From: a virus
Lineage: Duplodnaviria > Heunggongvirae > Uroviricota > Caudoviricetes
Direction: 5' to 3' (one strand)
Length of the DNA stretch: 42,538 nucleotides
IMG/VR virus record: IMGVR_UViG_2537561945_000004
Below are positions 8,234 to 36,706 of the stretch, in pieces (the stretch's first letter is position 1; the number at the start of each line of letters is the position of its first letter). The notes under the pieces were generated by a model. That model saw only the letters and a list, made by a program, of their open reading frames with translations. It made no database searches and was not told where the DNA came from. A program made the position numbers and the translations under genes.

Positions 8234-8324
8234 TAGACTGGCCCCCTGAATCTCCAGACAACCAATATCACTTATTTAAGTGATAGTCTTAATACTAGTT
8301 TTTAGACTAGTCATTGGAGAACAG

Positions 8325-8690
8325 ATGATTGATGTCTTAGGGCCGGAGAAACGCAGACGGCGTACCACACAGGAAAAGATCGCAATTGTTCAGCAGAGCT
8401 TTGAACCGGGGATGACGGTCTCCCTCGTTGCCCGGCAACATGGTGTAGCAGCCAGCCAGTTATTTCTCTGGCGTAAGCAATACCAGGAAGGAAGTCTTAC
8501 TGCTGTCGCCGCCGGAGAACAGGTTGTTCCTGCCTCTGAACTTGCTGCCGCCATGAAGCAGATTAAAGAACTCCAGCGCCTGCTCGGCAAGAAAACGATG
8601 GAAAATGAACTCCTCAAAGAAGCCGTTGAATATGGACGGGCAAAAAAGTGGATAGCGCACGCGCCCTTATTGCCCGGGGATGGGGAGTAA
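8325..8690 (+). CDS. insC: IS2 transposase OrfA (InsC)
   Basis: [41 protein letters not shown]... HTH transposase N-terminal protein; ATG 8325 inside IS2. Confidence 0.8.
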
Positions 8691-9553
8691 GCTTAGTCAG
8701 CCGTTGTCTCCGGGTGTCGCGTGCGCAGTTGCACGTCATTCTCAGACGAACCGATGACTGGATGGATGGCCGCCGCAGTCGTCACACTGATGATACGGAT
8801 GTGCTTCTCCGTATACACCATGTTATCGGAGAGCTGCCCACGTATGGTTATCGTCGGGTATGGGCGCTGCTTCGCAGACAGGCAGAACTTGATGGTATGC
8901 CTGCGATCAATGCCAAACGTGTTTACCGGATCATGCGCCAGAATGCGCTGTTGCTTGAGCGAAAACCTGCTGTACCGCCATCGAAACGGGCACATACAGG
9001 CAGAGTGGCCGTGAAAGAAAGCAATCAGCGATGGTGCTCTGACGGGTTCGAGTTCTGCTGTGATAACGGAGAGAGACTGCGTGTCACGTTCGCGCTGGAC
9101 TGCTGTGATCGTGAGGCACTGCACTGGGCGGTCACTACCGGCGGCTTCAACAGTGAAACAGTACAGGACGTCATGCTGGGAGCGGTGGAACGCCGCTTCG
9201 GCAACGATCTTCCGTCGTCTCCAGTGGAGTGGCTGACGGATAATGGTTCATGCTACCGGGCTAATGAAACACGCCAGTTCGCCCGGATGTTGGGACTTGA
9301 ACCGAAGAACACGGCGGTGCGGAGTCCGGAGAGTAACGGAATAGCAGAGAGCTTCGTGAAAACGATAAAGCGTGACTACATCAGTATCATGCCCAAACCA
9401 GACGGGTTAACGGCAGCAAAGAACCTTGCAGAGGCGTTCGAGCATTATAACGAATGGCATCCGCATAGTGCGCTGGGTTATCGCTCGCCACGGGAATATC
9501 TGCGGCAGCGGGCTTGTAATGGGTTAAGTGATAACAGATGTCTGGAAATATAG
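8648..9553 (+). CDS. insD: IS2 transposase OrfB (InsD), DDE/integrase-core domain; normally expressed as OrfAB by -1 frameshift
   Basis: 301-aa track ORF in -1 frame relative to orfA, starting at the AAAAAAG slippery site; rve-type catalytic core. Confidence 0.8.
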
Positions 9554-9830: not shown

Positions 9831-9992
9831 ATGAAAAAAGCATTTGCTGCACTGTTCGTTTTGTTGTCTCTGGTAGCTTCAACTCAGGCCTTTGCCGGCC
9901 GTTGTCAGCACGACAGCGATACTGCCGCTGACGGCTCCCGCTGCGGTGGGCGTTCTGCGGATTCCCGCCCGGGCGGCGGTGGCATTCGTTAA
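9831..9992 (+). CDS. Small secreted peptide (53 aa), function unknown
   Basis: ATG 9831; signal-peptide-like N-terminus MKKAFAALFVLLSLVASTQAFA followed by Gly/Arg/Asp-rich tail with 2 Cys; possible promoter TTGACG about 40 nt upstream; below track size cutoff, found by eye. Confidence 0.35.
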   Translation: MKKAFAALFVLLSLVASTQAFAGRCQHDSDTAADGSRCGGRSADSRPGGGGIR

Positions 9993-10014
9993 AAACAAGG
10001 CCGCGAAAGCGGCC

Positions 10015-10028
10015 CGTGACATGTCACG
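10015..10028. repeat. 14-bp perfect palindrome CGTGACATGTCACG (copy 1), overlapping stop codon of 10024-10320
   Basis: Seen directly; preceded by hairpin GGCCGC-GAAA-GCGGCC (9999-10014) and followed by a T-run. Confidence 0.5.
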
Positions 10029-10320
10029 TCCCTTTTCTGAATGATAGCCATTCGAAAAATGATGACATTCCACCGCAGACAATAGCAAAGATTATCCCAC
10101 CAAAGAATAGAAGGCCAGCCTGCCACCACTCCCACCGCCATACATCCACAGCGCCAACCATACCAACAATCGCTCCAACAAATGGAATATAGCTCACGAT
10201 GAAAGCAATGGGGGCTGCAATTATCCAGTGCAATCCCCACCATGATTCAAGCCCAGCCATAATTGCTGCCAACTGAAAAAGACCAACGACGATATAAACA
10301 ATGAATCCTATAGCTTGCAT
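10024..10320 (-). CDS. Small multi-pass membrane protein (accessory), function unknown
   Basis: 98 aa, Trp/Gly/Ile-rich hydrophobic helices; lies between virion genes and the accessory island. Confidence 0.45.
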   Translation of the reverse strand: MQAIGFIVYIVVGLFQLAAIMAGLESWWGLHWIIAAPIAFIVSYIPFVGAIVGMVGAVDVWRWEWWQAGLLFFGGIIFAIVCGGMSSFFEWLSFRKGT

Positions 10321-18317: not shown

Positions 18318-20788
18318 CAGAATCCCCCAACAGTAAGGCGAGGAATAACGGCAAGAACAGACAGCGGCAACGGGTCAAGCTGACGGATTTTTACACGCCC
18401 GTTTTTGCCCCAGTTACTGTCCAGTTTCACTTCTACTTTTCCGGTAGCATCATCAACAGGATCATCGTAGAACTCGAATTCACGCTGTGGATATTCGTAC
18501 CATTTACCGCCGGGCGTAGTCGCCCAGATGCCGCGACTGGCATTCACAACCAGAGTAACGGACGGGATCACCTGTTTTTTGTCCAGCAGCGTTTCCTGTC
18601 CGTTAATGTTGATATCCAGTGTTTCGAATTCAGCAGTTATTGGCAGGCCGATGTGCACAACAGCCCCCGGTGATTCCAGCGTGACGGCACCTCCGGAAAC
18701 CACTTTTTGTGGTTCCACGTTCGCATCAGAGAGGATGTTTACGGTCTGGCCTTCAAGATGAGACAAGCCGCCAAATGTCCGGCGCGCCATCTGCCAGTTC
18801 GTGGTGGCCACATTCCTGAGGGATGGCGGGACGTTCCTGTTAGCACGAACCACTACTGCGGTATTGCTGGTTACAGAAATAATGTCGCAACGTAATTCTT
18901 TTGACACTTCATCGCCAGTATCAGGATCAGCTCCGGTATAAGGGAACTGTAGTTGCGCACCAACATCACTACTGGTGAAGTACGCACCACCAGAAACACT
19001 GATTGTATATTCCGCGTGGTAATCCCATTCACCAGAACCACCAGTGATGGTCATCGTTCTGTCAGACGTATTTCTTCCATCATAGCTAAGGCCAGAATCA
19101 ACAAAGAAAGCATCTTCATCGCTGGTAAATAAACGGCTGGACAGTCTCTCGATGTATCTCACTGTTTGCCCGTTAACGGTTCTGTTAACGACGAAATACA
19201 CTGCATCTTCATTGCCTTCGCTGATACTGCATGTGCTTTCATATTTTCCGGTACTGGATTGTGGTGCCCATGCAAAAACCTGCTGATCACGCAAATAGGT
19301 CATCACCAGTAATTTACCGTCATCACGAATGCAGAAGGCACTGGAGTAAGGGACAATCGAGAAGCACCAGTCAACAATGCTGTGCTTCTGAAAAAGATGA
19401 TTGGCAAGGATAGTAAGGTCGTTCCCCTGATAGCCGTCAACATCGAATGAATAGGCCAGATCACGGACAACACTGCCTTTCTCCTGGACGAACAGAGCAA
19501 TATTCGCCACAGCAATTGGTGGGACGTTGCTTGAGCCATTTGATCCCTGAGAGCTGAATGCAAATGATGATGGGGTTAACACTTTGTTCTGGTCACCGGT
19601 GATGACGTACTCACCTCCGGAAGTCAGCGCCACCAGAGAACCAACATCAATCAGGTGACGGATCTCATTAACCTGACGCCCGGCATAGGTGTAGATAATT
19701 CTGTCGTCATCCTGCGTAGGATTGCTTTTGCCAAAATCCTTATAATCCCCGGTACGGCTGGCCCAGATAGTCTGAGGGAACGCAGTCGATGCGGCGAAGT
19801 AAAGACGTTGTTGATAATAAACAACAGTGCCAGGATAACCATTAACACTGTTCCAGGCATATTTAGCCCATTTATAGCTGGCATTATCCTCGCCCACGAC
19901 CTGCGAAGGGATATAGGAAATCACCTCGGCAGTTGCAGTAGTTCCATTTGCAGCAGTGATACGGGCAATGCCAAAACCACTGTGCAGATATTCCCACTCA
20001 ATGCCAGTATCATCATCACCGGATCCGCCCCAGCCATCCCATGATGTGCCTTCTGTATGCGAAGGGCGCAAAGTACCTGTTTTGCCTGCTGTAACGGCGC
20101 GATAGTAGTTACTGTCTGCACGGCGAATATCGCCAATCGACGTACTCTTACTGGTTTCCCATACCGGCACTGAATCCACTGCAGGCTGTTCCAGATAGAA
20201 CAATTTGCCTACCTGCTCCGCGCCAAAAATAGAGGCGCTTGCCGTTAACGTAATTGTCCCGGTGCTGGCGCTGGCATAAACCGTCACTGACTCGTCAATA
20301 TTGATATCTTCAAATGGCCCGTTCTTCGTTACCACATCAACCAGTTGCCAGTTGTCATGAGCATATCGGCGCAACTCTTTCGGCGGGTATGCCGGGTGAA
20401 CCAGCGTAAGCACGTCGGCGCTTTGCGTGAATTTAATTCGGAACAGATCGGCTTCAGTATATGGCGTGGCAATTTCATAAATAACATTGCTGCTGTTCAG
20501 CACCAACGCACCATCTTTGATAACGCGCATGTACTGGTGTCCGAACTCCAGAGCATAGGTCTGAACCGTCGAGAACTGGAACGGGATCAGGCGGCATTTC
20601 CGATTTGGGTATTTGGCGGCACCGACAAAACGCGTACCAGGTCGATTCTCAACGCCGCCATACTGCCGCACGATAAAGTTATCGCACTTGCGCAATGCTA
20701 CCTGGTACTTCGCCATGTCAATACGCCCGTACAACGACGGTCCAATCTCACCACCGGCAAAGCTGGGCTGGATCCAACTGATAGCCAT
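18317..20788 (-). CDS. Tail tubular protein B-like (nozzle; T7 gp12-like)
   Basis: 823 aa; N-terminal pattern IQPSFAGGEIGPSLYGRIDMAKYQ typical of podoviral tail-tube B proteins. Confidence 0.55.
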   Translation of the reverse strand: MAISWIQPSFAGGEIGPSLYGRIDMAKYQVALRKCDNFIVRQYGGVENRPGTRFVGAAKYPNRKCRLIPFQFSTVQTYALEFGHQYMRVIKDGALVLNSSNVIYEIATPYTEADLFRIKFTQSADVLTLVHPAYPPKELRRYAHDNWQLVDVVTKNGPFEDINIDESVTVYASASTGTITLTASASIFGAEQVGKLFYLEQPAVDSVPVWETSKSTSIGDIRRADSNYYRAVTAGKTGTLRPSHTEGTSWDGWGGSGDDDTGIEWEYLHSGFGIARITAANGTTATAEVISYIPSQVVGEDNASYKWAKYAWNSVNGYPGTVVYYQQRLYFAASTAFPQTIWASRTGDYKDFGKSNPTQDDDRIIYTYAGRQVNEIRHLIDVGSLVALTSGGEYVITGDQNKVLTPSSFAFSSQGSNGSSNVPPIAVANIALFVQEKGSVVRDLAYSFDVDGYQGNDLTILANHLFQKHSIVDWCFSIVPYSSAFCIRDDGKLLVMTYLRDQQVFAWAPQSSTGKYESTCSISEGNEDAVYFVVNRTVNGQTVRYIERLSSRLFTSDEDAFFVDSGLSYDGRNTSDRTMTITGGSGEWDYHAEYTISVSGGAYFTSSDVGAQLQFPYTGADPDTGDEVSKELRCDIISVTSNTAVVVRANRNVPPSLRNVATTNWQMARRTFGGLSHLEGQTVNILSDANVEPQKVVSGGAVTLESPGAVVHIGLPITAEFETLDININGQETLLDKKQVIPSVTLVVNASRGIWATTPGGKWYEYPQREFEFYDDPVDDATGKVEVKLDSNWGKNGRVKIRQLDPLPLSVLAVIPRLTVGGF

Positions 20789-26920: not shown

Positions 26921-26997
26921 GTGGCATTAGCTCAGTTGGACAGAGCAACCGCCTTCTAAGCGGTTGGTCGCAGGTTCGAATCCTGCATGCCACGCCA
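26921..26997 (+). tRNA. tRNA-Arg (anticodon UCU, reads AGA), phage-encoded
   Basis: 77 nt; acceptor stem GTGGCAT/ATGCCAC, discriminator G then CCA; anticodon arm ACCGC-CTTCTAA-GCGGT; T-loop GGTTCGAATCC; sequence differs from the E. coli argU I recall. Confidence 0.85.
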
Positions 26998-27199
26998 GAA
27001 TCACGCCTAAGGACCGTGATGCCAGAAGTTCCAAGTGCTTGGCGGTGATGGTTTCCCTTGAAGGACTATCACCGCCCTTTTTACAGCAGGACGCCATTGC
27101 GATGACTTCATGCTGTAAACCCGTACAGCCACGGAAGGCAGAACTCATTGCTTCCAGTTCGCCCGGTTCGCCGGGCATTTTTTTGCTTGATGACCGCAA

Positions 27200-27219: not shown

Positions 27220-28038
27220 ATGAAAAACTTCAAGGTAATTAGCATGTTTGAATCGTTCAAAGAGCTGTTTTTATCTACTGCCAATACTGCCGTGAATCGA
27301 GCCAAAAACCCTGTGCTTGGTGCTTTTGTTATGTCCTGGTGCGCCTTCAACTGGAAATCAATTCTTTATCTATTTTTTAGCAAATCAAACATAATAGATA
27401 AAATTTCATATATCTCAGATAACAGCACATGGAAAACTGTTATGTTTTATCCATGCTTATCTGTAATTGCTATCTGCTGCCTATTACCATGGGTAAACAA
27501 TATCATTAACGTATGGCAAGCAAAGCCTCTTGATAATAATGACTCAATCGAAAATCACCTGAAGGCAAGAAAAATCCAGCGTGAAACAAGGCTGCAGAGG
27601 TTATTGGCTAAAAAAGATGTTACATACGACAAAGTTAAGACTGGCGCGGAAAAAGACATCCAAGAGATGAAAGAAGAGATTATTCGTTCAAAGAATAGTA
27701 TGGGGGAATTGACTGCCGAGTTGAAAGCTAAAGATGACGAATTGAGATCCGCCAGTGCTCAGTTAGCAGCTCTAAATCATTCATTAAAAGAGATATCGGA
27801 AACTCTTGGAAGAATGAATGAGGCATATAAGACCCTCCAAAATGATTTCGACGAATACAAACTCAAATACCCTGAAAAATCTCAAATAAAAAGCCTTGCA
27901 CTTGGCAACGGCCAAACAATTAGCAACTTTTTGGAGCAACACAACTTATCCGGATTAAAATCTGGTAAGCCAAACGTTTTTAATAACTTTGGTGTTCTAT
28001 CTGGATTATCAGGTTTCGAGGATAAAAATAAAGACTAA
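27220..28038 (+). CDS. AT-rich moron: membrane-anchored coiled-coil protein, function unknown (candidate exclusion/abortive-infection-type protein)
   Basis: ATG 27220 (track ORF starts upstream at 27148); two hydrophobic segments then long charged coiled-coil; markedly lower GC than neighbours; opposite strand to the late operon; stop overlaps terminase large stop. Confidence 0.55.
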   Translation: MKNFKVISMFESFKELFLSTANTAVNRAKNPVLGAFVMSWCAFNWKSILYLFFSKSNIIDKISYISDNSTWKTVMFYPCLSVIAICCLLPWVNNIINVWQAKPLDNNDSIENHLKARKIQRETRLQRLLAKKDVTYDKVKTGAEKDIQEMKEEIIRSKNSMGELTAELKAKDDELRSASAQLAALNHSLKEISETLGRMNEAYKTLQNDFDEYKLKYPEKSQIKSLALGNGQTISNFLEQHNLSGLKSGKPNVFNNFGVLSGLSGFEDKNKD

Positions 28039-29510
28039 GCATATGGATCGTACTCGGTAAGCGCCTTGCCTTGCTGGTTCTGCTGCCCGGGAAGTCGCAG
28101 GCGCTTTGACACCGGGAAAGCAAACGTCAGCAGTAGCGCATCGCCTTTACCAGGCGAACGCCCAAGTCGTTCTTTGATATCTTCCTTCGGTTCGATAACG
28201 ATTTTACCGTCCACGCGAACTTTGTACTCTGCCGCCGACAGATCGTCCGCTGTTTCCTGGTCATCCAGCATCCCGCCCAACCTCAGCCATGTCTTGCATG
28301 AGTTGAACATCTCCCCACGCTTGTTAAGCATCTGCGGGTCAGTGGACGCACCGCCGAACGGAACAAGTTGCCATGTACGTCCCCAGCCATCACCGATTGA
28401 CTTCAAACCGGTTCCGTAACCGAAGTCGATGAACACCGCGTCAGCCTGATACTGGTCTTCAAAGTCAGCGATACGCTTCGCCATAATCAGATCGTCGGTA
28501 GTCTTGTTGCCAGTCCACAGCACCTTACTGTGTAGCCCCTGCCGCAGGTATATCACCGCGTCATCAACGCCTGAATATGCCGGGTCAACACCGATTATCA
28601 CCGGAGCATGCGCCACCTGCGCAGCGGTCACCACCCGTTTCATTGCCTCATCAGTAAGACCGGTAGGGATAAACTGCAATTCAGATGCATCAGGGAATAT
28701 GCCGCGCACACGGATTTTAACGAAGTCGCTGTCTTCCCCGTAGTCATCAACCCATTTCTGCAACTGCTGTTTGTTAGTGCCTTCCACCGTCCGGCTGTCA
28801 ATCTGCGCAGTTTTCCAGCGGTGTTTATACTTGCGGAAACATTCACGGAATCGCCCGGTGTTACGTGTCGGGTTTCCGAACGCCACCCAGATAATCTCAG
28901 TGTCTTCGTCCGTAAGCGCACCCTCAGCAACTTCCCACACCAGATCCGCAATATTCGACGCTTCATCGAATACCACGATGATGCGTTTGCGCTCGTTGTG
29001 TAGTCCGGCGAATGCCTCTGTGTTGTGCTCAGACCAGGGGATTGCGTCAGCTCGCCACCGCTTGTCGTGCCCAGGATCATTGCTGTACATCGCGGTAGCG
29101 GTACAGGTAAACCAGTCTTTCGTGATAGCAAGGTTCGACCACTTGATAATTTCCGGCCAGGTCTTCGTTCGTAGCTGGTTGTCGGTGTTGGCGGTCACCA
29201 CGACCTTACAATCCTCGCAAGTGGACATGCCCCAGTTGATCAGCATTGAGATGAATGCGGATTTACCAATACCGTGACCAGAAGCGCGTGCCAGCATAAG
29301 CGGCTGATAGCGCGTCTCTGGATTCTGCAGGTGATCACGTATCTCTCGGAACGCATCAGCCTGCCACTGACGTGGGCCGGTGGCATGTGCCAGTTCAGTC
29401 CCCTCTTCCCCCCACGGGAACGCATAGAGGGCATAGCCAAGCGGATCGTGAGTGAACCCTGCAATATCCTCGATCAACTGCTCTTCAGGAGATAACGCTG
29501 TATCTGTCAC
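28035..29510 (-). CDS. Terminase large subunit
   Basis: 491 aa; ATPase N-terminal and nuclease C-terminal terminase architecture; overlaps terminase small stop. Confidence 0.75.
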   Translation of the reverse strand: MTDTALSPEEQLIEDIAGFTHDPLGYALYAFPWGEEGTELAHATGPRQWQADAFREIRDHLQNPETRYQPLMLARASGHGIGKSAFISMLINWGMSTCEDCKVVVTANTDNQLRTKTWPEIIKWSNLAITKDWFTCTATAMYSNDPGHDKRWRADAIPWSEHNTEAFAGLHNERKRIIVVFDEASNIADLVWEVAEGALTDEDTEIIWVAFGNPTRNTGRFRECFRKYKHRWKTAQIDSRTVEGTNKQQLQKWVDDYGEDSDFVKIRVRGIFPDASELQFIPTGLTDEAMKRVVTAAQVAHAPVIIGVDPAYSGVDDAVIYLRQGLHSKVLWTGNKTTDDLIMAKRIADFEDQYQADAVFIDFGYGTGLKSIGDGWGRTWQLVPFGGASTDPQMLNKRGEMFNSCKTWLRLGGMLDDQETADDLSAAEYKVRVDGKIVIEPKEDIKERLGRSPGKGDALLLTFAFPVSKRLRLPGQQNQQGKALTEYDPYA

Positions 29511-30100
29511 TGATTGCCATCCTGACGTTCTTTCAGTCTCTTCCTGGCTGCCGCTATGCGATCAGCAATTGTCACATTCACATTAACATCCAGACGTTCT
29601 TTGAATGCATTGACATCGACGTGCTTACCAATCAGCTCAAGGTTCTTCACCTTGTCAGGCCATTTAATTTTTTTGAGGATTGTCTCTATCGAATCCTCGT
29701 TCATGTTCATGATGGTCGATGACAGATCAAAGCCGCTAAGCGTAGTGCGCCAGATTTTCGGCCACTCGCGGATTGGCTTAAGGCTCCCATCGTCGTTGAG
29801 GATATCAATCACGTCCATCTGGTCGATCTCCACCAAGCGCATGAGAACGTAATCAGCACTGACACGCATTCGTTTGTTGCGTTCCTCCATCAGCTCGGCA
29901 ATCCGTTTCTGAATGCGTTCATCGCGCATCATGACACTGGCTTTAACTGCCGCTGTATTTGGGGAGAATCCTGCGTTAATCGCTGCCTGAGTCTGGTTTT
30001 CAGGCATTTTGATGTATGACTGGCAATAAGCCTCCTGCATTGCTGTTAGTGGCTTAAATTGCGTTGATTTGCGTTTATAGGTTTTAGGTTCAGCAGGCAT
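29507..30100 (-). CDS. Terminase small subunit
   Basis: ATG 30100 with GGTGG RBS (MPAEPKTYKRKS...); track ORF extends to 30181 across the operator and terminator, which I reject. Confidence 0.6.
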   Translation of the reverse strand: MPAEPKTYKRKSTQFKPLTAMQEAYCQSYIKMPENQTQAAINAGFSPNTAAVKASVMMRDERIQKRIAELMEERNKRMRVSADYVLMRLVEIDQMDVIDILNDDGSLKPIREWPKIWRTTLSGFDLSSTIMNMNEDSIETILKKIKWPDKVKNLELIGKHVDVNAFKERLDVNVNVTIADRIAAARKRLKERQDGNQ

Positions 30101-30120
30101 AATAACCACCCTGGTAATTG

Positions 30121-30135
30121 TTACCGTTGTGGTAA
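30121..30135. promoter_or_regulatory. Operator-like palindrome TTACC-GTTGT-GGTAA (overlapping GGTAA-TTG-TTACC at 30113-30125) in front of the late operon
   Basis: Perfect TTACC-N5-GGTAA 15-30 nt upstream of the terminase small ATG. Confidence 0.5.
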
Positions 30136-30144
30136 TAGTAACAT

Positions 30145-30172
30145 GCAAAATAAAGCCGCCATAGTTGGCGGC
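30145..30172 (-). terminator. Early-operon terminator preceding late genes (tR-prime-like)
   Basis: On the minus strand GCCGCC-aactat-GGCGGC followed by TTTATTTT. Confidence 0.55.
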
Positions 30173-30212
30173 AGTATTCAAAACACATCAAATTCATCAT
30201 GCATAATCTACT

Positions 30213-30225
30213 CGTGACATGTCAC
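30213..30225. repeat. Palindrome CGTGACATGTCAC (copy 2 of GTGACATGTCAC), overlapping stop codon of 30222-30569
   Basis: Seen directly; same 12-bp core as at 10016-10027. Confidence 0.5.
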
Positions 30226-30569
30226 ACTATTAATTTCGTTTCATGCCAGCCTTTAGTCACCCAGCATTGCGAGTCACCATTACACGGGCATGAATTAACT
30301 GGAACTCTCTCGCCGCACTTACCGCAACGTTTTCTGCTGATCGATTTTATACGCCCGCGCACGCGTGCATCATCCTGGCGGATCAGTAACGCTATATACT
30401 CACCAAATTCGTAAGGCGCACGCCCGGGGCGACGTGTGGCACAGTTACGCTCCAGCATTTCAATTTCCTGAGCATCAAGCACAATCTCCAGCTTACGTAC
30501 ACCGGATTCAGCTTGTCTGGCTCTCTGAGCGGCTTTGCGTTCTGCGGGGGATTTAGCCACGAATCGCAC
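30222..30569 (-). CDS. Zinc-ribbon protein upstream of late operon (possible late-gene regulator/antiterminator)
   Basis: C-terminal CGKCGERVPVNSCPCNGDSQC cysteine cluster; position corresponds to lambda Q; start uncertain (GTG 30569 or ATG 30458 with AGGAAA RBS). Confidence 0.4.
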   Translation of the reverse strand: MRFVAKSPAERKAAQRARQAESGVRKLEIVLDAQEIEMLERNCATRRPGRAPYEFGEYIALLIRQDDARVRGRIKSISRKRCGKCGERVPVNSCPCNGDSQCWVTKGWHETKLIV

Positions 30570-30675
30570 TCCACGCCAGATTGATTAATGACTCCCAGGC
30601 AATATAAACCCGGATACCAGCAGCCAGGCCGAAACCAATCACCATGGCATAAAGCAGAGCGTTGCACTTGTTCAT
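30553..30675 (-). CDS. Small hydrophobic peptide (40 aa)
   Basis: ATG 30675 overlapping the DUF551 gene stop, preceded by AGGAGG with 8-nt spacing; MNKCNALLYAMVIGFGLAAGIRVYIAWESLINLAWSAIRG; not in ORF track (below cutoff). Confidence 0.3.
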   Translation of the reverse strand: MNKCNALLYAMVIGFGLAAGIRVYIAWESLINLAWSAIRG

Positions 30676-31526
30676 CACTTCACCTCCTGCGGCGGTTCTG
30701 GTAGAGGCATCCAGTCGGTTACATTGCGGCTCTGCGTTTCGAAGAACTCCTCACCATTGCGGACAACATCAAAAAACTCACCGTCTCGATATTGTGCATA
30801 AAGAACGAATGCACCATCACATAAAATAATTACGTGCTGACCATCATCAGGCATTTGCTCACTACAGCTTATCCAACCATCCGGAGTTACCGGAGAGTTG
30901 CCAGCCAGTCTACGCAAAACAGCCTTAACAGCCTCAATACGGTCATCATCGTAACTTTCCGCCGTATCTATGCGGTAGAGCATGATGATTGCGTTATCAA
31001 TATCAGGATTGCCAGTCCACTCATTACCGCGATTGGATTCGGCAGCCTGGTTGCCGCGTACTGGTTGATTCTCGGCTTTACCCTGTCTGTCGTCGCTGCA
31101 TGAATGCCCTTCCAGCCAGGCCAATGCTTGTCGCATGAAATATGCAATATGTTTGCCGTGGTAATCGTCTTCATCGATGTGAAAAGCGATACTGCGGATG
31201 TATTCAATTGCGTTTTCAATGGCCTCCGGCGTTATCGGCGCTGGCGGTGCGGTATAAAACTTCGTCCCCAACGGCAACAACTTCATCGCTTTTTCTCCCT
31301 TAATGATGCGATAAGTTGATTTCCCGCCAAGGTCTACCGTTCCATCCATAACAAGGCCATGTTGCTTCTCTGAAACTTCACCAATAGGCTCTGCTTCCAG
31401 CGATGCCAGCGCAATTCGTGCCAGTTCTTCCGCTTCTTCTGCTGGCAGTACAACGTTGCTACCCGGTCCGTATGTTTCGCGCCACTGCTTGATTGTCAGC
31501 AGTCGCTCTTTGGTAATAGTGGTCAT
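30675..31526 (-). CDS. DUF551-domain phage protein
   Basis: C-terminal ..DGQHVIILCDGAFVLYAQYRDGEFF...VTDWMPLPEPP matches the DUF551 pattern common in lambdoid nin regions. Confidence 0.55.
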   Translation of the reverse strand: MTTITKERLLTIKQWRETYGPGSNVVLPAEEAEELARIALASLEAEPIGEVSEKQHGLVMDGTVDLGGKSTYRIIKGEKAMKLLPLGTKFYTAPPAPITPEAIENAIEYIRSIAFHIDEDDYHGKHIAYFMRQALAWLEGHSCSDDRQGKAENQPVRGNQAAESNRGNEWTGNPDIDNAIIMLYRIDTAESYDDDRIEAVKAVLRRLAGNSPVTPDGWISCSEQMPDDGQHVIILCDGAFVLYAQYRDGEFFDVVRNGEEFFETQSRNVTDWMPLPEPPQEVK

Positions 31527-31536
31527 TTGTTAGTCC

Positions 31537-32292
31537 TTAAACTGCCAGTTGCAATTGCATTTCAAAGCGGTCGCGTTGTTCACAATACGCAAGAGAACCA
31601 GGGCTATTGTGTGCCTCAATCCGTTCTACCATTAATGCTGCGCGTGTCTCTTTACTTGCAGGTGCATAAGCCCCAGACCAGGCTTTATCAATACCGATGT
31701 TTCGAGCGACGTTCGTACTATCTGCGCTGGCTAAGGGTAATTTTGTGAATATCAGCGGATTTAACATGCGCAATCCATGTAGTTTCGTAACCGGCTGACC
31801 ATGCTCATCAACAATGTGACAAATCAGGTCTTTCATTCTGGCTACCGCAAGAGTTGGGCGCTTTACGTCATAGTCTCCACAACTACCGATAGCCACTCGC
31901 GGAAACTCATTGCACAAATGAATAAACCGCTCGTCACTTTCATTCATGTGCCACACTGGAACGTCAGATAGTTTTCCGTGAGGCCACTCATTCAGAAGCG
32001 CATCATTTTCCTCCTCTCCGCCATCAATAACATCCGGGATAATGGCAAAATCGAATCCTGGGTGATTCTTCCAGCGAGCGACAAACTCGTAGTAATCGCT
32101 CCAGTCGATTTTGTTTTTGCCAGCTGCTTTCCAGGCGGTGAATGCACCGTTGTCCAGCGCGAACGACTGACAGTATTCAGCCGCGAGATTGATCTGTCCT
32201 GAATGCGCAAAACTGATAAACGCATGCCGCCCTTTCCATGCTCTCATTGCGCACGTATCAGGAGTAATAGGCCCACCGTGATAATGAATCAT
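31537..32292 (-). CDS. Hypothetical protein; candidate tRNA-guanine transglycosylase (TGT)/DpdA-like enzyme
   Basis: ATG 32292 with AAGGAG RBS (MIHYHGGPITP...); weak motif-level resemblance to TGT superfamily (HGGPITP, LDNGAF); assignment tentative. Confidence 0.35.
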   Translation of the reverse strand: MIHYHGGPITPDTCAMRAWKGRHAFISFAHSGQINLAAEYCQSFALDNGAFTAWKAAGKNKIDWSDYYEFVARWKNHPGFDFAIIPDVIDGGEEENDALLNEWPHGKLSDVPVWHMNESDERFIHLCNEFPRVAIGSCGDYDVKRPTLAVARMKDLICHIVDEHGQPVTKLHGLRMLNPLIFTKLPLASADSTNVARNIGIDKAWSGAYAPASKETRAALMVERIEAHNSPGSLAYCEQRDRFEMQLQLAV

Positions 32293-32293
32293 C

Positions 32294-32785
32294 TCACTCT
32301 CCTTTGATGCGAATGCCTGTTGCAATGCTGTTTATGATGCTGTCAGTGCATGGGGTAGAAAGCTGGGCATCTCCAGCAATTTTCATGACCTCAACATCTG
32401 CATATCGAATACCGAGGTGTATCAGACCGGCTATACCTGACTTAAGCCGAGCATTTTCCATAAACAGATCCTTTGCCCGCTGTTTTTCTGCCTCAAGCTC
32501 AACGCGCAGCTTCCCTACCGTTAGCGCAATATCCTCGTTCTCCTGGTCGCGGCGTTTGATGTATTGCTGGTTCCTTTCCCGTTCATCCAGTAGTGCCAAA
32601 GCAATCTTTGGATTAAAGGCAGCAATAAATTCAGCGTTGTTTTTCAGGACGTGTTGCGCAATGGCCTGACTACTTAGTCGGACCTCATAACCACGTGCGC
32701 CACGGTGTGGTTTATATGAGTCCCAGTCTCCCCACGTTGCTTTCTCTGCCGCCTCACGCAGTGCATGATAGTCAATCTTGTTCAC
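32294..32785 (-). CDS. Ea22-like coiled-coil protein
   Basis: N-terminus MNKIDYHALREAAEKATWGDW typical of ead/Ea22-like lambdoid proteins. Confidence 0.5.
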   Translation of the reverse strand: MNKIDYHALREAAEKATWGDWDSYKPHRGARGYEVRLSSQAIAQHVLKNNAEFIAAFNPKIALALLDERERNQQYIKRRDQENEDIALTVGKLRVELEAEKQRAKDLFMENARLKSGIAGLIHLGIRYADVEVMKIAGDAQLSTPCTDSIINSIATGIRIKGE

Positions 32786-33658: not shown

Positions 33659-33673
33659 TTACCCCTTAGGTAA
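33659..33673. promoter_or_regulatory. Operator-like palindrome TTACC-CCTTA-GGTAA
   Basis: Perfect TTACC-N5-GGTAA directly upstream of the DUF1064 gene start. Confidence 0.45.
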
Positions 33674-33772: not shown

Positions 33773-34558
33773 TTACTTGATAAATCCTGCCGCCTTTCCC
33801 CGCCTGTATTCCTCTATCAGCCACTGCGCCGGTGTTATTCCCCCCAGGGTGGCGGCGTTAGGCATGCACCCGAAACTTCGCCCTGGTGGATGGTAAACGT
33901 TTCTCCCAGTGTCAGGAGGCGTACTCATGGGTTCTGGCTTTGCCTGTATGCTGATCACCGGATCGGGTATCTGCTGTCCGGAAGCCACCTTTTTCGCCCA
34001 ATCATCGAGCAGCCTGCGCGCGTGTTTCTCAACCTCAATCTCGCTAAGCTGGCGCTGATACATTGCACGGCGGGTATCACATACGACCCAGTACATAACC
34101 GGATGTCGCCACGGGAATCTTTCGGGACCACCAGGATATAAACTTTTTTCCTTGCTGTACCGGTGAAACTCCGCCATCACATCGTCAATGGTGACGCCAA
34201 GAACCATCTTGCTGTCTTTACACCACTTGATGAATTGCCCAGGCGACGGCCAGAACGGAGATTCACTGGCGCGGGCGTGGCGCATACCAGCAGAAACCTG
34301 TTCACGGGTTCGGATCCCCCCTTCGGCAAACGCAGCAATCCACTGCTGTTTTGCAGCTACTTCCTGCTCTGGCGTCTTCAGGTTGGTTACCACTGCCGCC
34401 GGAAACAGTTGTTTCAGCTGTTTGAAAAGGGCATCAACAAGCCTCTCTGCTGACATGTTAACCACATTGTCATTGTTGACGTACTGATGCTCATAACCTG
34501 ACATGCGAGAAAGGGCTTCTCCGTCACGGTTTTGTATCGCGGTAAAAACGTTGTTCAC
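33773..34558 (-). CDS. Replication protein P-like (DnaB helicase loader)
   Basis: ..QQWIAAFAEGGIRTREQVSAGMRHARASESPFWPSPGQFIKWCKDS.. parallels lambda P (RRQWVLAFRENGITTMEQVNAGMRVARRQNRPFLPSPGQFVAWCREE); GTG 34558 with GGAGGA RBS overlapping O-like stop (GTGA). Confidence 0.65.
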   Translation of the reverse strand: MNNVFTAIQNRDGEALSRMSGYEHQYVNNDNVVNMSAERLVDALFKQLKQLFPAAVVTNLKTPEQEVAAKQQWIAAFAEGGIRTREQVSAGMRHARASESPFWPSPGQFIKWCKDSKMVLGVTIDDVMAEFHRYSKEKSLYPGGPERFPWRHPVMYWVVCDTRRAMYQRQLSEIEVEKHARRLLDDWAKKVASGQQIPDPVISIQAKPEPMSTPPDTGRNVYHPPGRSFGCMPNAATLGGITPAQWLIEEYRRGKAAGFIK

Positions 34559-35370
34559 AAGAAATCCTCCCATGCTTCAGGGCTGTTCCAGTGCGGAACG
34601 TTGTTATCAGATAATGTTGATTGCTTCTGTCTGCTAATCTGCAGCCGCCTTGCCAGCTTCTGCTCCCACTGTGCCTGATGGTATGCCTTACCCTCAGCCA
34701 TCCAGTAAATTCTGAACTCTGCAAGTTCCTGTGCCGTTGGCAGACTGTCCAGGTAGATCCCCTGCAATGAGCTTTTCCGAAGAAAGTCATCTGATGGCTG
34801 CCATTGTTCATGCATGACAAATTTGCCTAATTGCCCTGGCCCACCAGGAGGAACAAAGTTATTCATCACGGCGTTGTTTGCGCCGGGGTCATGATGCACA
34901 GAATCCCCGTTTTTTGTCCTGCTCTCCCTCTCTTGGTTAAATGACTGGTTATATGACTGGTTCTGGATCCCGTTTTTGGGATCATTCAACATCCCGTTTT
35001 TGGGATCATTCAACATCCCGTTTTTGGGTATATTCCCGTTTTCGGTAACATTACCGTTTTCGGGTTCATTGCCCCCCTCCCGGTTGCCTTTAATGTTCCC
35101 GTTTTTGGTTATATTAAGAGAGAAAACCCGCACTCTTTTTGTCGCTCCCTTTCTCTCTCCGGTATCTGAAATAAGCCCCATTTTCATGAGCGATATAAGC
35201 CCGGCCTGCACGGTTTTTTTATTCAGGCAAGTGTCTTTAACGAGGCGTTCTATGCTGGGGTAGCAGAGGTTATATTCATCGGCTCTGTCAGCCATCGAGA
35301 GCAGTATGAGCTTTAATGATGAGCTACCTGGATCTGTCTCCCAGGCCCAATCTGTTGCATGTCTGCTCAT
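34555..35370 (-). CDS. Replication initiator O-like protein with iterons inside the coding sequence
   Basis: GGAG RBS; N-terminal HTH-like DNA-binding region; internal peptide repeats (NDPKNGML x3) encoded by 24-bp DNA iterons; directly followed by P-like gene. Confidence 0.6.
   Translation of the reverse strand: MSRHATDWAWETDPGSSSLKLILLSMADRADEYNLCYPSIERLVKDTCLNKKTVQAGLISLMKMGLISDTGERKGATKRVRVFSLNITKNGNIKGNREGGNEPENGNVTENGNIPKNGMLNDPKNGMLNDPKNGIQNQSYNQSFNQERESRTKNGDSVHHDPGANNAVMNNFVPPGGPGQLGKFVMHEQWQPSDDFLRKSSLQGIYLDSLPTAQELAEFRIYWMAEGKAYHQAQWEQKLARRLQISRQKQSTLSDNNVPHWNSPEAWEDFL
34941..35110. repeat. Putative replication origin: iterons TCCCGTTTT(T/C)GG x6 plus ATGACTGGTT x2, followed by AT-rich stretch
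   Basis: Copies at about 34968, 34992, 35016 (24-bp period), 35034, 35053, 35097; AT-rich segment 35110-35130. Confidence 0.6.
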
Positions 35371-35385
35371 GATTAATCTCCGCTA

Positions 35386-35586
35386 TCAGCTTGAGTGTTG
35401 TGGGGAGGAATTAATCATGATCTGCTTAATCTCTGCCCTGATGCGACGGTTTGATTCCATGGTGCACTCAACACAGTGTCCGTTGTAAACCCAGCGTTCA
35501 CTGTCATGTCCGTGCTTACATGGTTTTCCGGTGTAGTAGCGTTTAAGTCCGCGCTTTGCGGCATCAATACGTGTAATGATTTCCAT
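35386..35586 (-). CDS. Small zinc-finger protein (CxxH...CxxC), cII-position regulator candidate
   Basis: MEIITRIDAAKRGLKRYYTGKPCKHGHDSERWVYNGHCVECTMESNRR; start uncertain (track ORF begins at 35649). Confidence 0.4.
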   Translation of the reverse strand: MEIITRIDAAKRGLKRYYTGKPCKHGHDSERWVYNGHCVECTMESNRRIRAEIKQIMINSSPQHSS

Positions 35587-36121: not shown

Positions 36122-36706
36122 ATGAAAAGTATCCAGGACGTCCGCAGGCAAAATCTCAACGACTTGATCGACCGTGAATGCAATGGTGTTCAGACGCGGA
36201 TGGCAGAAAAACTTGGAACTCAGGCAAATCTGGTAAACCGCTGGGCTCTTGGCAAGAAGGTTATCGGCGACCAGGTTGCACGAAAAATTGAAGCTGCCGC
36301 CAATAAACCCCGTAACTGGCTTGATATTGATCGTTCGCTTTCTCAGGAGGGTTTTCAGCCTGTCGGCCCGAGCGATATAGGTCAGCTGGCGGCTCACAAC
36401 CTGGAACGCTGGATGAGCGAAAGCCGCGACCTTTCAACACAGGGAAAACTTCACCGCGCATCCGGCGTCGCCCAGGTGACAATCAGCCGCCTGTTAAACA
36501 ATGAGGTCAGCGTTTCCATTTCCACCCTGGAGAATGTTGCATCCGCATTCGGGCGTCACGGCTATGAATTACTGATTCACCCGCACGACCCTGCGACCAT
36601 CAACTATGATCGCTCGCGCTACGCATTGTTACCCGAAACCGAGAAAGCAAAGATCGAAAGTTACATTGAATTTGTCATCAACCAGAACGAAAAAAACAAA
36701 CAATAA
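36122..36706 (+). CDS. Prophage repressor candidate: two HTH (XRE-like) domains, no S24 peptidase domain
   Basis: 194 aa; HTH segments MAEKLGTQANLVNRWALGKKVIGDQVARKIE and LHRASGVAQVTISRLLNNEVSVSISTLENVASAF; no Ser-Lys autocleavage module visible; divergent from Cro-like gene; followed by terminator. Confidence 0.55.
   Translation: MKSIQDVRRQNLNDLIDRECNGVQTRMAEKLGTQANLVNRWALGKKVIGDQVARKIEAAANKPRNWLDIDRSLSQEGFQPVGPSDIGQLAAHNLERWMSESRDLSTQGKLHRASGVAQVTISRLLNNEVSVSISTLENVASAFGRHGYELLIHPHDPATINYDRSRYALLPETEKAKIESYIEFVINQNEKNKQ

What the first reader, a model, noticed from the sequence alone, without database searches (positions are those of the whole stretch)
30145..30675. Early-to-late junction: zinc-ribbon protein, palindrome, terminator and operator before terminase
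On the minus strand the order is: DUF551 gene, an overlapping 40-aa hydrophobic peptide with AGGAGG RBS, a zinc-ribbon protein (30222-30569), the palindrome GTGACATGTCAC over its stop, an intrinsic terminator (30145-30172), the operator palindrome (30121-30135), then terminase small. This resembles a Q/tR-prime-type antitermination checkpoint with an added operator. The zinc-ribbon protein is the obvious late-regulator candidate but is not recognisably lambda Q.
Basis: inference. Interest (0 to 1): 0.4.

Follow-up and report, generated by a model that had tools for sequence, protein, structure and literature searches.

The report
Phage DNA-binding protein with conserved palindrome
The early-to-late gene junction of this epsilon15-like prophage is real but not lambda-Q-like: its last early gene encodes a small DNA-binding protein that travels across many phages with a 12-base palindrome over its own stop codon, a site that closely resembles the bacterial chromosome-organising matS site.

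Summary
Corrections: the "zinc-ribbon" gene most likely starts at 30560 (112 aa), and a second, degenerate operator covers the terS ribosome-binding site. The window is an epsilon15/phiV10-type prophage.

The terminator and the repressor operator before terS are ordinary. The epsilon15 RefSeq record already annotates both.

The Q/tR'-type reading is not supported:
- The protein has no Q homology.
- The promoter-like match is not conserved in relatives.
- In phage N15 a family member coexists with a real Q.

The new result concerns the palindrome.
- GTGAC-NN-GTCAC sits at or near the stop codon of this gene family in 35 of 48 diverged lineages, and exactly over the stop in 22.
- There are 49 exact copies in 373 kb against about 0.36 expected by chance.
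- It recurs two or three times per genome. In the epsilon15-type genomes these copies lie at gene ends, just before intrinsic terminators.

The protein models confidently (pLDDT 89) as a ribbon-helix-helix fold plus a four-cysteine module. Its best structural match, though weak, is MatP bound to matS. matS (GTGACRNYGTCAC) has the same half-sites with one extra central base.

I infer a cognate protein-site pair acting at operon ends. Whether it controls read-through or organises DNA as MatP does is unresolved.

The parts
30675..31526 (-). DUF551-domain gene, upstream neighbour in the early-right operon
   Evidence: ORF. Pfam DUF551 E 6e-20.
30553..30678 (-). 41-aa hydrophobic peptide gene. AGGAGG lies upstream. 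Its start overlaps the DUF551 stop and its stop overlaps the next gene's start.
   Evidence: phrog_5525 E 8e-30. It is not a constant partner of the family: phiV10 and TL-2011b have other genes at this position.
30222..30560 (-). 112-aa ribbon-helix-helix protein with a C-terminal four-cysteine module (C79, C82, C91, C99). Equivalent to epsilon15 gp49, phiV10 gp55 and N15 gp46. An alternative GTG start lies at 30569.
30214..30225 (.). PAL1: GTGACATGTCAC, containing the TGA stop of the 112-aa gene. Inferred binding site of that protein.
   Evidence: Conserved in diverged loci even where displaced from the stop. 49 exact GTGAC-NN-GTCAC copies in 373 kb of family loci against about 0.36 expected.
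30178..30204 (-). 8-codon remnant ORF (MHDEFDVF*) of a cargo gene. Relatives carry different cargo genes at this position.
   Evidence: In relatives the same position holds a small ORF (L127), a umuD-like gene with a LexA box (L130, L137, L123) or a TIR-like gene (L117).
30145..30172 (-). Intrinsic terminator t1: GCCGCCAACTATGGCGGC followed by TTTATTTT
   Evidence: dG -13.8 kcal/mol, z -4.5. Kept in relatives, with a different stem sequence in L154. Annotated in epsilon15 and phiV10.
30120..30136 (.). Prophage-repressor operator O1 (ATTACC-N5-GGTAAC, exact 15-bp core)
   Evidence: The homologous site in epsilon15 (12-27) is annotated as a repressor-binding site.
30103..30117 (.). Second, degenerate operator O2 (one mismatch). 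It covers the terS Shine-Dalgarno (GGGTGG) and ends 2 nt before the ATG.
   Evidence: The operator at 33659 has the same arrangement in front of the DUF1064 gene.
29507..30100 (-). Terminase small subunit, first gene of the packaging operon
   Evidence: Terminase_2 E 3e-29. phrog_51.
10016..10027 (.). PAL3: second exact GTGACATGTCAC, containing the TGA stop of the last gene of the structural operon (98-aa membrane protein, 10024-10320)
   Evidence: The same site is present in phiV10 (19493), epsilon15 (19517) and phiv142-3 (7086).
9991..10015 (-). Intrinsic terminator immediately after PAL3 (GGCCGCTTTCGCGGCC followed by TTGTTTTT)
   Evidence: Annotated in phiV10 at 19505-19522.
36122..36706 (+). 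Prophage repressor gene, flanked by operator pairs 36004/36052 and 36764/36826. Presumed to bind O1 and O2.
   Evidence: Equivalent to phiV10 gp40 and the epsilon15 repressor.

Best explanation
This is the end of the early-right (replication and accessory-gene) operon and the start of the packaging operon of an epsilon15/phiV10-type temperate podophage.

Shown
- The last early gene encodes a 112-aa ribbon-helix-helix (RHH) protein with a C-terminal four-cysteine module.
- A 12-bp palindrome, GTGAC-NN-GTCAC, overlaps its stop codon and is inherited together with this gene across very diverged phages.
- A decayed cargo-gene remnant, a strong intrinsic terminator and two prophage-repressor operators follow. 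The second operator lies on the terS ribosome-binding site.

Inferred, about 0.75
- The protein binds the palindrome as a dimer, so the two form a cognate gene-site pair.

Inferred, about 0.6
- The terminator ends early and cargo transcripts.
- Repressor bound at O1 and O2 keeps terS shut in the lysogen.

Inferred, about 0.35, the mechanism I commit to
- The protein bound at these sites changes what RNA polymerase does at the terminators that follow them, most likely allowing read-through from the early operon into the packaging genes (PAL1/t1) and past the end of the structural operon towards the tailspike and lysis genes (PAL3).
- This would act as a timer, because the protein is the last early product.
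- It would not work as lambda Q does: no promoter-proximal loading site is conserved.
For: Anatomy.

Gene-site linkage
- The palindrome is kept in relatives whether or not it overlaps the stop.
- 35 of 48 lineage representatives have it within -15 to +300 nt of the stop, and 22 have it exactly on the stop. These include members only 25-33% identical.
- There are 49 exact copies against about 0.36 expected.
- N15 gp46 (35% identical) has it on its stop.

DNA-binding fold
- AlphaFold2 pLDDT 88.9.
- Some members give weak Pfam RHH or RepB-RCR_reg hits.

DNA site rather than RNA element
- The half-sites are invariant while the centre varies.
- As an RNA hairpin the palindrome reaches only -2.9 kcal/mol, no better than shuffled sequence.

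Link to operon ends
- Extra exact copies lie at gene stops just upstream of terminators in the window (10016), phiV10, epsilon15, phiv142-3 and N15.
- A terminator lies within 100 nt of 11 of 49 sites, against 4.3% of random positions.

Other
- Cargo inserted between PAL1 and t1 is tolerated.
- No convincing sigma-70 promoter precedes terS, the portal operon or the tailspike gene.
- No Q-like hit turned up among the genes scanned, and the first PL-operon product is not arginine-rich, unlike the N antiterminators as I recall them.
- The gene usually sits directly before terminase, lysis or portal genes.
Against: - No binding or expression data exist. The protein-palindrome pairing rests on co-inheritance and fold only.
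- In distant lineages the palindrome is often followed directly by the next gene, with no terminator.
- N15 has its own Q, and two of its three sites lie in the leftward repA operon, one of them inside repA itself.
- P2-like phages, which normally use Ogr-type late activators (my own knowledge), also carry the family.
- The site after terL in phiV10, epsilon15 and phiv142-3 belongs to an antisense cargo gene. It lies after the terminator with respect to late transcription, and it is missing from this window.
- I know of no precedent for antitermination loaded from a double-stranded palindrome in mid-operon. Most RHH proteins are repressors.
Confidence: 0.45

Rival explanations
1. MatP-like architectural role. 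The protein is a phage counterpart of the chromosome-organising protein MatP, working on its own separate set of sites. It binds two or three matS-like sites in the phage genome to bridge or organise phage DNA, or to keep MukBEF or other SMC-type complexes off it. The positions at gene ends would only reflect where a 12-bp site is tolerated.
For: - The half-sites are identical to matS (GTGACRNYGTCAC). Only the spacer differs, 2 bases instead of 3.
- There are a few dispersed sites per genome.
- Nearly all hosts named for family members belong to Enterobacterales, Vibrionales, Aeromonadales or Alteromonadales. From my own knowledge these are the orders that carry MatP and MukBEF.
- True 13-bp matS sites are absent from 500 Escherichia and Salmonella prophages (PMC3603311), so the 12-bp form could avoid cross-talk with the host system.
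Against: - Profile comparison with MatP gives no significant similarity (probability 0.1%, E 0.5).
- The protein lacks MatP's four-helix bundle and coiled coil and has a zinc module instead.
- The sites lie upstream of terminators, in transcribed DNA, rather than beyond them.
- No function for such a system in a phage is known.
Confidence: 0.2
2. GTGACA of the palindrome is the -35 element, and a Q-binding-like element, of a constitutive promoter. This promoter makes a short leader RNA that stops at the terminator. The zinc protein loads there, as lambda Q does at PR', and lets polymerase read into terS.
For: - A promoter-like match GTGACA-18-CATGAT lies at 30225-30196, followed by the terminator about 35 nt after the predicted start.
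- The gene lies immediately upstream of its putative site, as Q does.
- No other antiterminator was recognised.
Against: - The promoter scan found no more hits than in shuffled sequence (7 against 9.4).
- The -10-like hexamer lies in a cargo-gene remnant and is absent from L154, L117, L140 and others that keep the palindrome.
- PAL3 has no promoter-like arrangement, because the terminator stem starts right after it.
- There is no Q homology.
- N15 has Q as well as this family.
Confidence: 0.1
3. Ordinary operon end. Late operons fire from weak promoters at the dispersed operators once the repressor is inactivated. The RHH protein is only a local repressor or autoregulator, for example of the cargo gene next to it, and has no role in late-gene timing.
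For: - Operators precede terS, the portal operon, the tailspike gene and the DUF1064 gene.
- The PL promoter and the DUF1064 promoter show clear promoter-plus-operator geometry.
- Most RHH proteins are repressors.
- Tandem palindromes about 33 nt apart in some lineages look like classical operators.
- Cargo genes, including some with their own promoter, sit next to the site.
Against: - No convincing -35 and -10 elements lie at the terS, portal or tailspike operators.
- The site is at the 3' end of the regulator's own gene, not at a promoter.
- Extra sites at the ends of other operons, far from any cargo promoter, are left unexplained.
Confidence: 0.15
4. The palindrome is not the protein's site. 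It is a module-boundary or recombination sequence, or a host-factor site (for example for MatP), that merely tends to lie next to this gene.
For: - Homology between relatives breaks exactly at the palindrome's edge. At PAL3 different last genes (the 98-aa gene, phiV10 gp21, epsilon15 gp18) read into the same palindrome and terminator. At PAL1 different cargo genes follow it.
- Cargo genes or variable regions lie next to the sites in the epsilon15-type genomes and next to the gp46 site in N15.
- In the 14-mer scan of viral contigs, 53 of 128 matches had none of nine selected window proteins, including the family protein, within 3 kb.
Against: - Linkage to the stop codon of this one family persists across P2-like, N15-like, epsilon15-like and other phage types. 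Simple adjacency does not easily explain this.
- Many of the 53 unlinked 14-mer matches could be chance, because the collection is very large and the stored stretches are short.
Confidence: 0.1

Closest known systems
MatP / matS (Ter macrodomain organiser of E. coli and relatives)
   Same: - Palindromic site with identical half-sites, GTGAC and GTCAC.
- A few dispersed sites per replicon.
- Same host clade.
   Different: - The site is 12 bp (spacer of 2), not 13 bp (spacer of 3).
- No detectable sequence homology.
- No four-helix bundle or coiled coil. A four-cysteine module is present instead.
- The gene carries its own site on its stop codon.
Lambda Q with PR', qut and tR'
   Same: - It is the last gene before the late genes.
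- Its putative site lies immediately downstream of the gene.
- A terminator stands between the site and the late genes.
- Q also binds zinc (my own knowledge).
   Different: - No homology to any Q family.
- No conserved promoter or pause element.
- The site is a perfect dyad and recurs at other operon ends.
- The family coexists with Q in N15.
Ribbon-helix-helix regulators (Arc, Mnt, CopG, MetJ, ParD/TacA antitoxins, AmrZ)
   Same: - Strand-helix-helix topology with a basic N-terminal arm.
- A short dyad site.
- Tandem sites in some lineages.
   Different: - C-terminal four-cysteine module.
- The site lies at the 3' end of the regulator's own gene rather than at a promoter.
- Only weak Pfam RHH hits, in a few members.
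Dispersed repressor sites: the sites annotated in the epsilon15 record, and mycobacteriophage L5 'stoperators'
   Same: - About 14 repressor-type sites spread over intergenic regions, including in front of late genes.
- The epsilon15 record annotates the site before terS.
- L5 likewise has many sites that block read-through in lysogens (my own knowledge).
   Different: - The sites here are symmetric 17-mers, not asymmetric 13-mers.
- Whether they act as promoter operators or as roadblocks is not known.
Late activators encoded just upstream of terS in Gram-positive phages (RinA, LtrC, ArpU)
   Same: A small regulator gene lies directly before terS, with its site between the two genes (my own knowledge of those systems; position here).
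   Different: - No homology.
- The distance from the site to terS varies, because cargo genes are inserted between them. That argues against a fixed-distance activator.
DksA/TraR C4 zinc-finger proteins
   Same: The best sequence-profile hits in the PDB are YbiI and TraR. They align over a long helix plus the CxxCG..P..G..C motif (E 0.035-0.05).
   Different: - The cysteine spacing differs (CxxC-x8-C-x7-C).

Membership tests
Lambda-type Q antitermination module | Protein belongs to a Q family (lambda Q, 82/P22 gp23 or 21 type) | tested here: not met
   No Pfam, NCBIfam or PDB sequence match to any Q family. The fold is RHH plus a Cys4 module.
Lambda-type Q antitermination module | Constitutive promoter with a Q-binding element and promoter-proximal pause between the Q gene and the terminator | tested here: not met
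   There is only a 9-of-12 promoter-like match in this window, and the scan total is below the shuffled expectation. It is not conserved in relatives that keep the palindrome and terminator. Transcription start sites cannot be tested here.
Lambda-type Q antitermination module | Intrinsic terminator between the regulator's site and the late genes | tested here: met
   Stem 30172-30155 followed by a T run, dG -13.8, z -4.5. terS follows at 30100.
Lambda-type Q antitermination module | The protein is the phage's only late antiterminator | tested here: not met
   N15 encodes both a family member (gp46) and a Q-like protein (gene 40) with its own late promoter and terminator.
MatP family | Sequence or profile similarity to MatP | tested here: not met
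   hhalign of the 89-sequence family alignment against E. coli MatP, and against a 78-sequence MatP alignment, gives probability 0.1% and E 0.5. The MatP alignment was shallow (87% identity or more).
MatP family | Tripartite fold: four-helix bundle, RHH and C-terminal coiled coil (my own knowledge of the MatP structure) | tested here: not met
   [not shown]
MatP family | Binds 13-bp matS, GTGACRNYGTCAC | tested here: not met
   The linked sites are 12 bp, GTGAC-NN-GTCAC. 13-bp versions occur in only 8 of 241 loci. The half-sites are identical. Binding itself cannot be tested here.
Ribbon-helix-helix (MetJ/Arc/CopG) superfamily | Strand-helix-helix topology that dimerises to form a two-stranded sheet | tested here: inconclusive
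   [not shown]
Ribbon-helix-helix (MetJ/Arc/CopG) superfamily | Match to a curated RHH family model | tested here: inconclusive
   The window protein has no Pfam hit. A few family members hit RHH_5, RepB-RCR_reg or RHH_1 at E 0.01-0.07. Four members have a precomputed PF10723 hit. NCBIfam 'LexA regulated protein' scores E 0.08.
DksA/TraR C4 zinc-finger family | CxxC-x17-CxxC zinc finger after a long helix, and family-level similarity | tested here: not met
   [not shown]
Epsilon15-type prophage-repressor operator | 17-bp dyad ATTACC-N5-GGTAAT that also flanks the repressor gene | tested here: met
   There are 10 exact and 6 one-mismatch cores against 0.76 expected. Pairs lie on both sides of the repressor gene 36122-36706.
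Epsilon15-type prophage-repressor operator | Homologous site before terS recognised in a reference genome | tested here: met
   Epsilon15 RefSeq feature 'protein_bind, repressor' at 12-27, just before terS at 47. That annotation is itself a prediction.
Intrinsic (Rho-independent) terminator | GC-rich hairpin followed by a U tract, conserved in relatives | tested here: met
   Relatives keep it, and L154 has a different stem sequence that still pairs.

The most novel reading that the evidence does not exclude
Temperate phages of enterobacteria, vibrios and aeromonads carry a compact cassette that mimics MatP and matS but works on its own sites. It consists of an RHH-zinc protein and 12-bp sites that are matS shortened by one base. 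The protein would bridge or mark phage DNA, or evict MukBEF or other SMC-type complexes from it, during lytic growth, without touching the host's 13-bp matS sites. The sites would also mark the places where cargo and defence genes are exchanged.
Probability: 0.2. Interest if true: 0.85.

Novelty: new variant of a known kind. Interest (0 to 1): 0.6.

Why it matters
- **Late-gene switch.** No Q or N homologue was recognised among this prophage's genes that I scanned, and I found no description of how epsilon15/phiV10-type phages switch on late genes. A DNA-binding protein whose sites lie just before the terminators on the way to the late genes gives a direct, testable candidate.
- **Gene family without a known function.** The family (phrog_536) has 149 clusters at 50% identity and occurs in Escherichia, Salmonella, Klebsiella, Yersinia, Vibrio and Aeromonas phages, including N15. 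It is annotated only as "transcriptional regulator" or "hypothetical". Linking it to a precise 12-bp site makes it experimentally tractable.
- **Link to chromosome organisation.** The site has the same half-sites as matS, and the protein's best structural match is MatP. Phages may therefore copy or interfere with the host's chromosome-organisation system, which would be new.
- **Practical use.** In the epsilon15-type genomes, and beside gp46 in N15, the palindrome marks boundaries where cargo genes differ between relatives (TIR-like, umuD-like and toxin-antitoxin genes). It could serve as a landmark for finding such genes.

Tried and rejected
- **Sequence searches with the protein alone.** Pfam, NCBIfam and PDB gave nothing usable.
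- **First AlphaFold2 run.** With 34 close homologues the model reached only pLDDT 64 and was not used.
- **Other fold searches.** Foldseek against the PDB found nothing significant. Against BFVD it found only a 46-aa fragment of the same family. The afdb50 library was unavailable.
- **MatP homology by sequence.** hhalign against one MatP sequence and against 78 sequences gave no signal. The genome scan returned only close MatP relatives, so the test was weak.
- **RNA element.** As an RNA hairpin the palindrome is no more stable than shuffled sequence. Rfam gave only a sub-threshold rseX match (29 against 50 bits) that rests mainly on the terminator hairpin and U tract. Rejected.
- **Fixed-distance promoter downstream of the palindrome.** None was seen across lineages.
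- **Genome ends or a pac site next to the gene.** Many contigs end shortly after it, but they end at prophage boundaries (an alpA-like gene, integrase, tRNA), not at packaging ends.
- **Defence-system membership.** No PADLOC hit for the protein.
- **Literature.** The epsilon15 genome paper and the MatP-matS structure paper are not held. Full-text searches for the palindrome strings found no paper. The ZX5 paper deals only with the repressor, antirepressor and integrase.
- **N-like antiterminator.** The first PL-operon product is not arginine-rich.
Full report
**What the window is**

The window is an epsilon15/phiV10-type temperate podophage (Uetakevirus-like), present here as a prophage.
- The junction region is 92-97% identical to Escherichia phages phiv142-3, PAS61, TL-2011b and phiV10.
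- Gene order matches the annotated phiV10, epsilon15 and phiv142-3 genomes.
- On the minus strand the order is: repressor-proximal early genes, replication genes (a lambda-P-like gene at 33773-34573), accessory genes (DUF1064, Ead/Ea22, a DpdA-like gene, DUF551), the gene under study, then terS, terL, the portal and the structural genes.

**Checking the observation**

- DUF551 gene, 30675-31526.
- 41-aa hydrophobic peptide gene, 30553-30678, behind AGGAGG. It matches phrog_5525.
- Cys-rich ORF, 30222-30569.
- GTGACATGTCAC at 30214-30225, with the ORF's TGA inside it.
- A terminator with a 7-bp stem (6 of them G-C), 30172-30155, followed by TTTATTTT. The hairpin has dG -13.8 kcal/mol and z -4.5.
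- Operator core at 30121-30135.
- terS, with its ATG at 30100.

Three refinements follow.
- Homologues are almost all 112 aa. GTG 30560 has GGAG 8 nt upstream and overlaps the peptide's stop, so 30222-30560 is the likelier gene.
- A second operator with one mismatch, 30103-30117, covers the terS Shine-Dalgarno.
- The stretch between palindrome and terminator holds an 8-codon relic, MHDEFDVF*.

**The operator is one of a dispersed family and is already known**

- TTACC-N5-GGTAA occurs 16 times at up to one mismatch, 10 of them exact, against 0.76 expected. The full consensus is the 17-mer ATTACC-N5-GGTAAT.
- Pairs flank the repressor gene 36122-36706.
- PL reads TTGACA-17-AATTAT, with one operator at +1 and another 62 bp upstream. 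The same 62-bp pair precedes the DUF1064 gene, where the second operator holds the Shine-Dalgarno.
- Other sites precede the portal operon, a cargo gene and the tailspike gene.
- The epsilon15 RefSeq record annotates seven 'repressor' binding sites, including 12-27 just before terS, and a terminator after gp49. The terminator-plus-operator part of the finding is therefore already on record.
- At terS the two operators are 18 bp apart. I see no convincing -35 and -10 elements there, nor at the portal or tailspike sites. They may therefore act as roadblocks rather than as promoter operators. That is inference.

**A site between palindrome and terminator where relatives carry cargo genes**

In relatives the same position holds one of the following:
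- a small ORF that ends ...YDEFDGS* (L127);
- a umuD-like gene behind a perfect LexA box (L130, L137, L123);
- a TIR-like gene (L117).

The window keeps only the fused start and end of such a gene. The terminator is retained in L121, L127, L130 and L120. L154 has a different stem sequence that still pairs.

**The protein**

- It belongs to phrog_536 (E 5e-54).
- It has 774 relatives among clusters at 90% identity and 149 among 1.84 billion representatives at 50% identity. All are named 'hypothetical' or 'transcriptional regulator'.
- Alignments of members down to 26% identity keep R8, R13, Y50, E54, L59, C79, C82, a third cysteine (C91) and C99.
- With 89 sequences AlphaFold2 gives pLDDT 88.9: an N-terminal basic helix, a coil at residues 20-29, helices 30-42 and 52-74, then the cysteine module.
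- A few members give weak Pfam RHH or RepB-RCR_reg hits.

**The palindrome is the key element**

- In diverged epsilon15-like loci GTGACATGTCACG is kept. This holds even where the stop codon is elsewhere: L117 has it 10 nt after a TAA, L123 has it after an extra ORF, and L120 has one changed base.
- Across 48 lineage representatives the motif generalises to GTGAC-NN-GTCAC, with invariant half-sites and a free centre.
- 35 lineages have it within -15 to +300 nt of the stop, and 22 have it exactly over the stop (G-TGA-C). These include Vibrio, Aeromonas, P2-like and lysis-adjacent members only 25-33% identical.
- There are 49 exact copies in 373 kb, against about 0.36 expected from base frequencies of one quarter each.
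- Some lineages have two sites about 33 nt apart.
- As RNA the palindrome folds no better than shuffled sequence (-2.9 kcal/mol). Conserved arms with a variable centre is the pattern of a double-stranded site for a dimer, not of a hairpin.
- From co-inheritance and the RHH fold I infer that this protein binds the site.

**More copies, at operon ends**

- The window has a second exact copy at 10016-10027. It again contains the TGA of the last gene of the structural operon (a 98-aa membrane protein) and abuts a terminator.
- Epsilon15 has three exact copies: at the gp49 stop, after terL, and at the gp18 stop.
- phiV10 has two, plus one split by the ends of the record.
- phiv142-3 has three.
- In each case the order is gene stop, palindrome, terminator, read in the direction of the gene that ends there.
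- The copy after terL belongs to an antisense cargo gene. It is absent from this window, where a different cargo gene abuts terL.
- Similarity between relatives ends at the palindrome's edge.
- A strict terminator lies within 100 nt of 11 of 49 sites, against 4.3% of random positions. This is mostly an epsilon15-group feature.
- N15 gp46 is a member (35% identity, E 1e-21) and N15 has three GTGACTGGTCAC sites. One is on the gp46 stop, one lies between gene 33 and a terminator, and one is inside repA.

**matS and MatP**

- matS is GTGACRNYGTCAC (PMC6907758; PMC3603311). It has the same half-sites with one more central base.
- 13-bp versions are rare in the family loci: 8 of 241 loci have one.
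- True matS was reported absent from 500 Escherichia and Salmonella prophages.
- Profile comparison with MatP is not significant, although the best local alignment falls on the two RHH helices.
- Nearly all hosts named for family members are Enterobacterales, Vibrionales, Aeromonadales or Alteromonadales.
- The resemblance therefore consists of site, fold class and host range, not demonstrated homology.

**Gene neighbourhood**

- In epsilon15-like phages the gene is followed by terS and terL, sometimes with a cargo gene in between.
- In a Pantoea-type group it is followed by an alpA-like gene, an integrase and the prophage end.
- In P2-like prophages it lies next to the portal and terL genes.
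- In another group the order is integrase, small genes, this gene, holin, endolysin and a DUF1441 gene.
- The gene is therefore usually the last one before late genes. This fits a regulator, but N15's separate Q shows it is not a general replacement for Q.

**How it most likely works**

Shown:
- the anatomy;
- the gene-site linkage;
- the recurrence of the site at operon ends.

Inferred:
- The protein binds the palindrome (about 0.75).
- The terminator and repressor-bound operators insulate terS from early and cargo transcription in the lysogen (about 0.6).
- The bound protein alters polymerase behaviour at the downstream terminators, most likely allowing read-through and so delaying late expression until the last early product accumulates (about 0.35).

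The main rival is a MatP-like architectural or SMC-excluding role (about 0.2).

**Novelty**

- The terminator and the operator are already on record.
- I found no description of the palindrome, or of its link to this family, in the annotated records or in the paper library.
- I class the finding as a new variant of a known kind, an RHH regulator with a cognate dyad site. It has an unusual site position and an unexpected likeness to matS.

Noticed in passing
window 31537-32325 (-): A DpdA-like gene (phrog_887, 'queuine tRNA-ribosyltransferase', E 5e-102) lies in the accessory-gene part of the early operon. It suggests 7-deazaguanine modification of the phage DNA. It has no Pfam hit.
   Followed up: no
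window 8280-9553 (+): Two overlapping ORFs look like an IS3-family (IS2-like) transposase. They lie in the variable region between the structural operon and the tailspike gene. This identification is by eye from the translations only.
   Followed up: no
window 26921-26997 (+), 27170-27195 (+) and 27220-28038 (+): A tRNA-Arg(tct) gene, a terminator-like hairpin and a 272-aa cargo gene all run antisense to the late genes, between terL and the portal operon. An operator lies over a perfect TATAAT just before the cargo gene's ATG. The cargo protein has a coiled-coil region giving weak DndD-, LmuB- and JetC-like hits. Its stop overlaps the terL stop.
   Followed up: partly
window 34934-35070 (within gene 34555-35370): Tandem repeats of 24 bp (2.6 copies, 100% matches), 18 bp and 12 bp lie inside the replication-initiator gene. 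They are probably origin iterons.
   Followed up: partly
window 36764/36826 and 33721/33659: Two operator pairs have exactly the same 62-bp spacing. One is at PL and one is in front of the DUF1064 gene. In both, the downstream operator sits at about +1. The pair before terS is only 18 bp apart.
   Followed up: partly
window 4891-4902: A third exact match to GTGAC-NN-GTCAC (GTGACGGGTCAC) lies inside the tailspike gene. phiv142-3, whose tailspike gene differs, has no copy in its tailspike gene. This may be chance.
   Followed up: partly
L130, L137 and L123, just after the palindrome: Relatives carry a umuD-like gene with a near-consensus LexA box (TACTGT-N8-ACAGTA) and a TTGACT -35 element 7 nt after the palindrome. 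This is an SOS-controlled cargo gene directly upstream of the terminase genes.
   Followed up: partly
L112, L094, L114, L150, L119, L085 and others, 10-25 nt after the palindrome: A conserved short hairpin-like sequence, CCTG(A/T)TGCAGCAGG, follows the palindrome. It precedes an alpA-like gene in the relatives whose prophage ends with an integrase. Its function is unknown.
   Followed up: no
L164, L165 and L178 (family ORFs of 380-408 aa); protein P0251: Some family members are fused to a roughly 290-aa N-terminal extension. In P0251 that part looks like the N-terminus of a large terminase subunit. L164's fused ORF has no Pfam hit.
   Followed up: partly
window 35386-35586 (-): A small early protein (phiV10 gp42-like) has the motif GKPCKHGH...NGHCVEC. 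This is a second cysteine-rich candidate regulator. It sits behind its own terminator (35715-35696) and operator (35667).
   Followed up: no
window 30148-30233 (-): A sub-threshold, full-length Rfam match to the Hfq-binding sRNA RseX (29 bits against a threshold of 50) spans the palindrome to the terminator. The match rests mainly on the terminator hairpin and U tract.
   Followed up: yes
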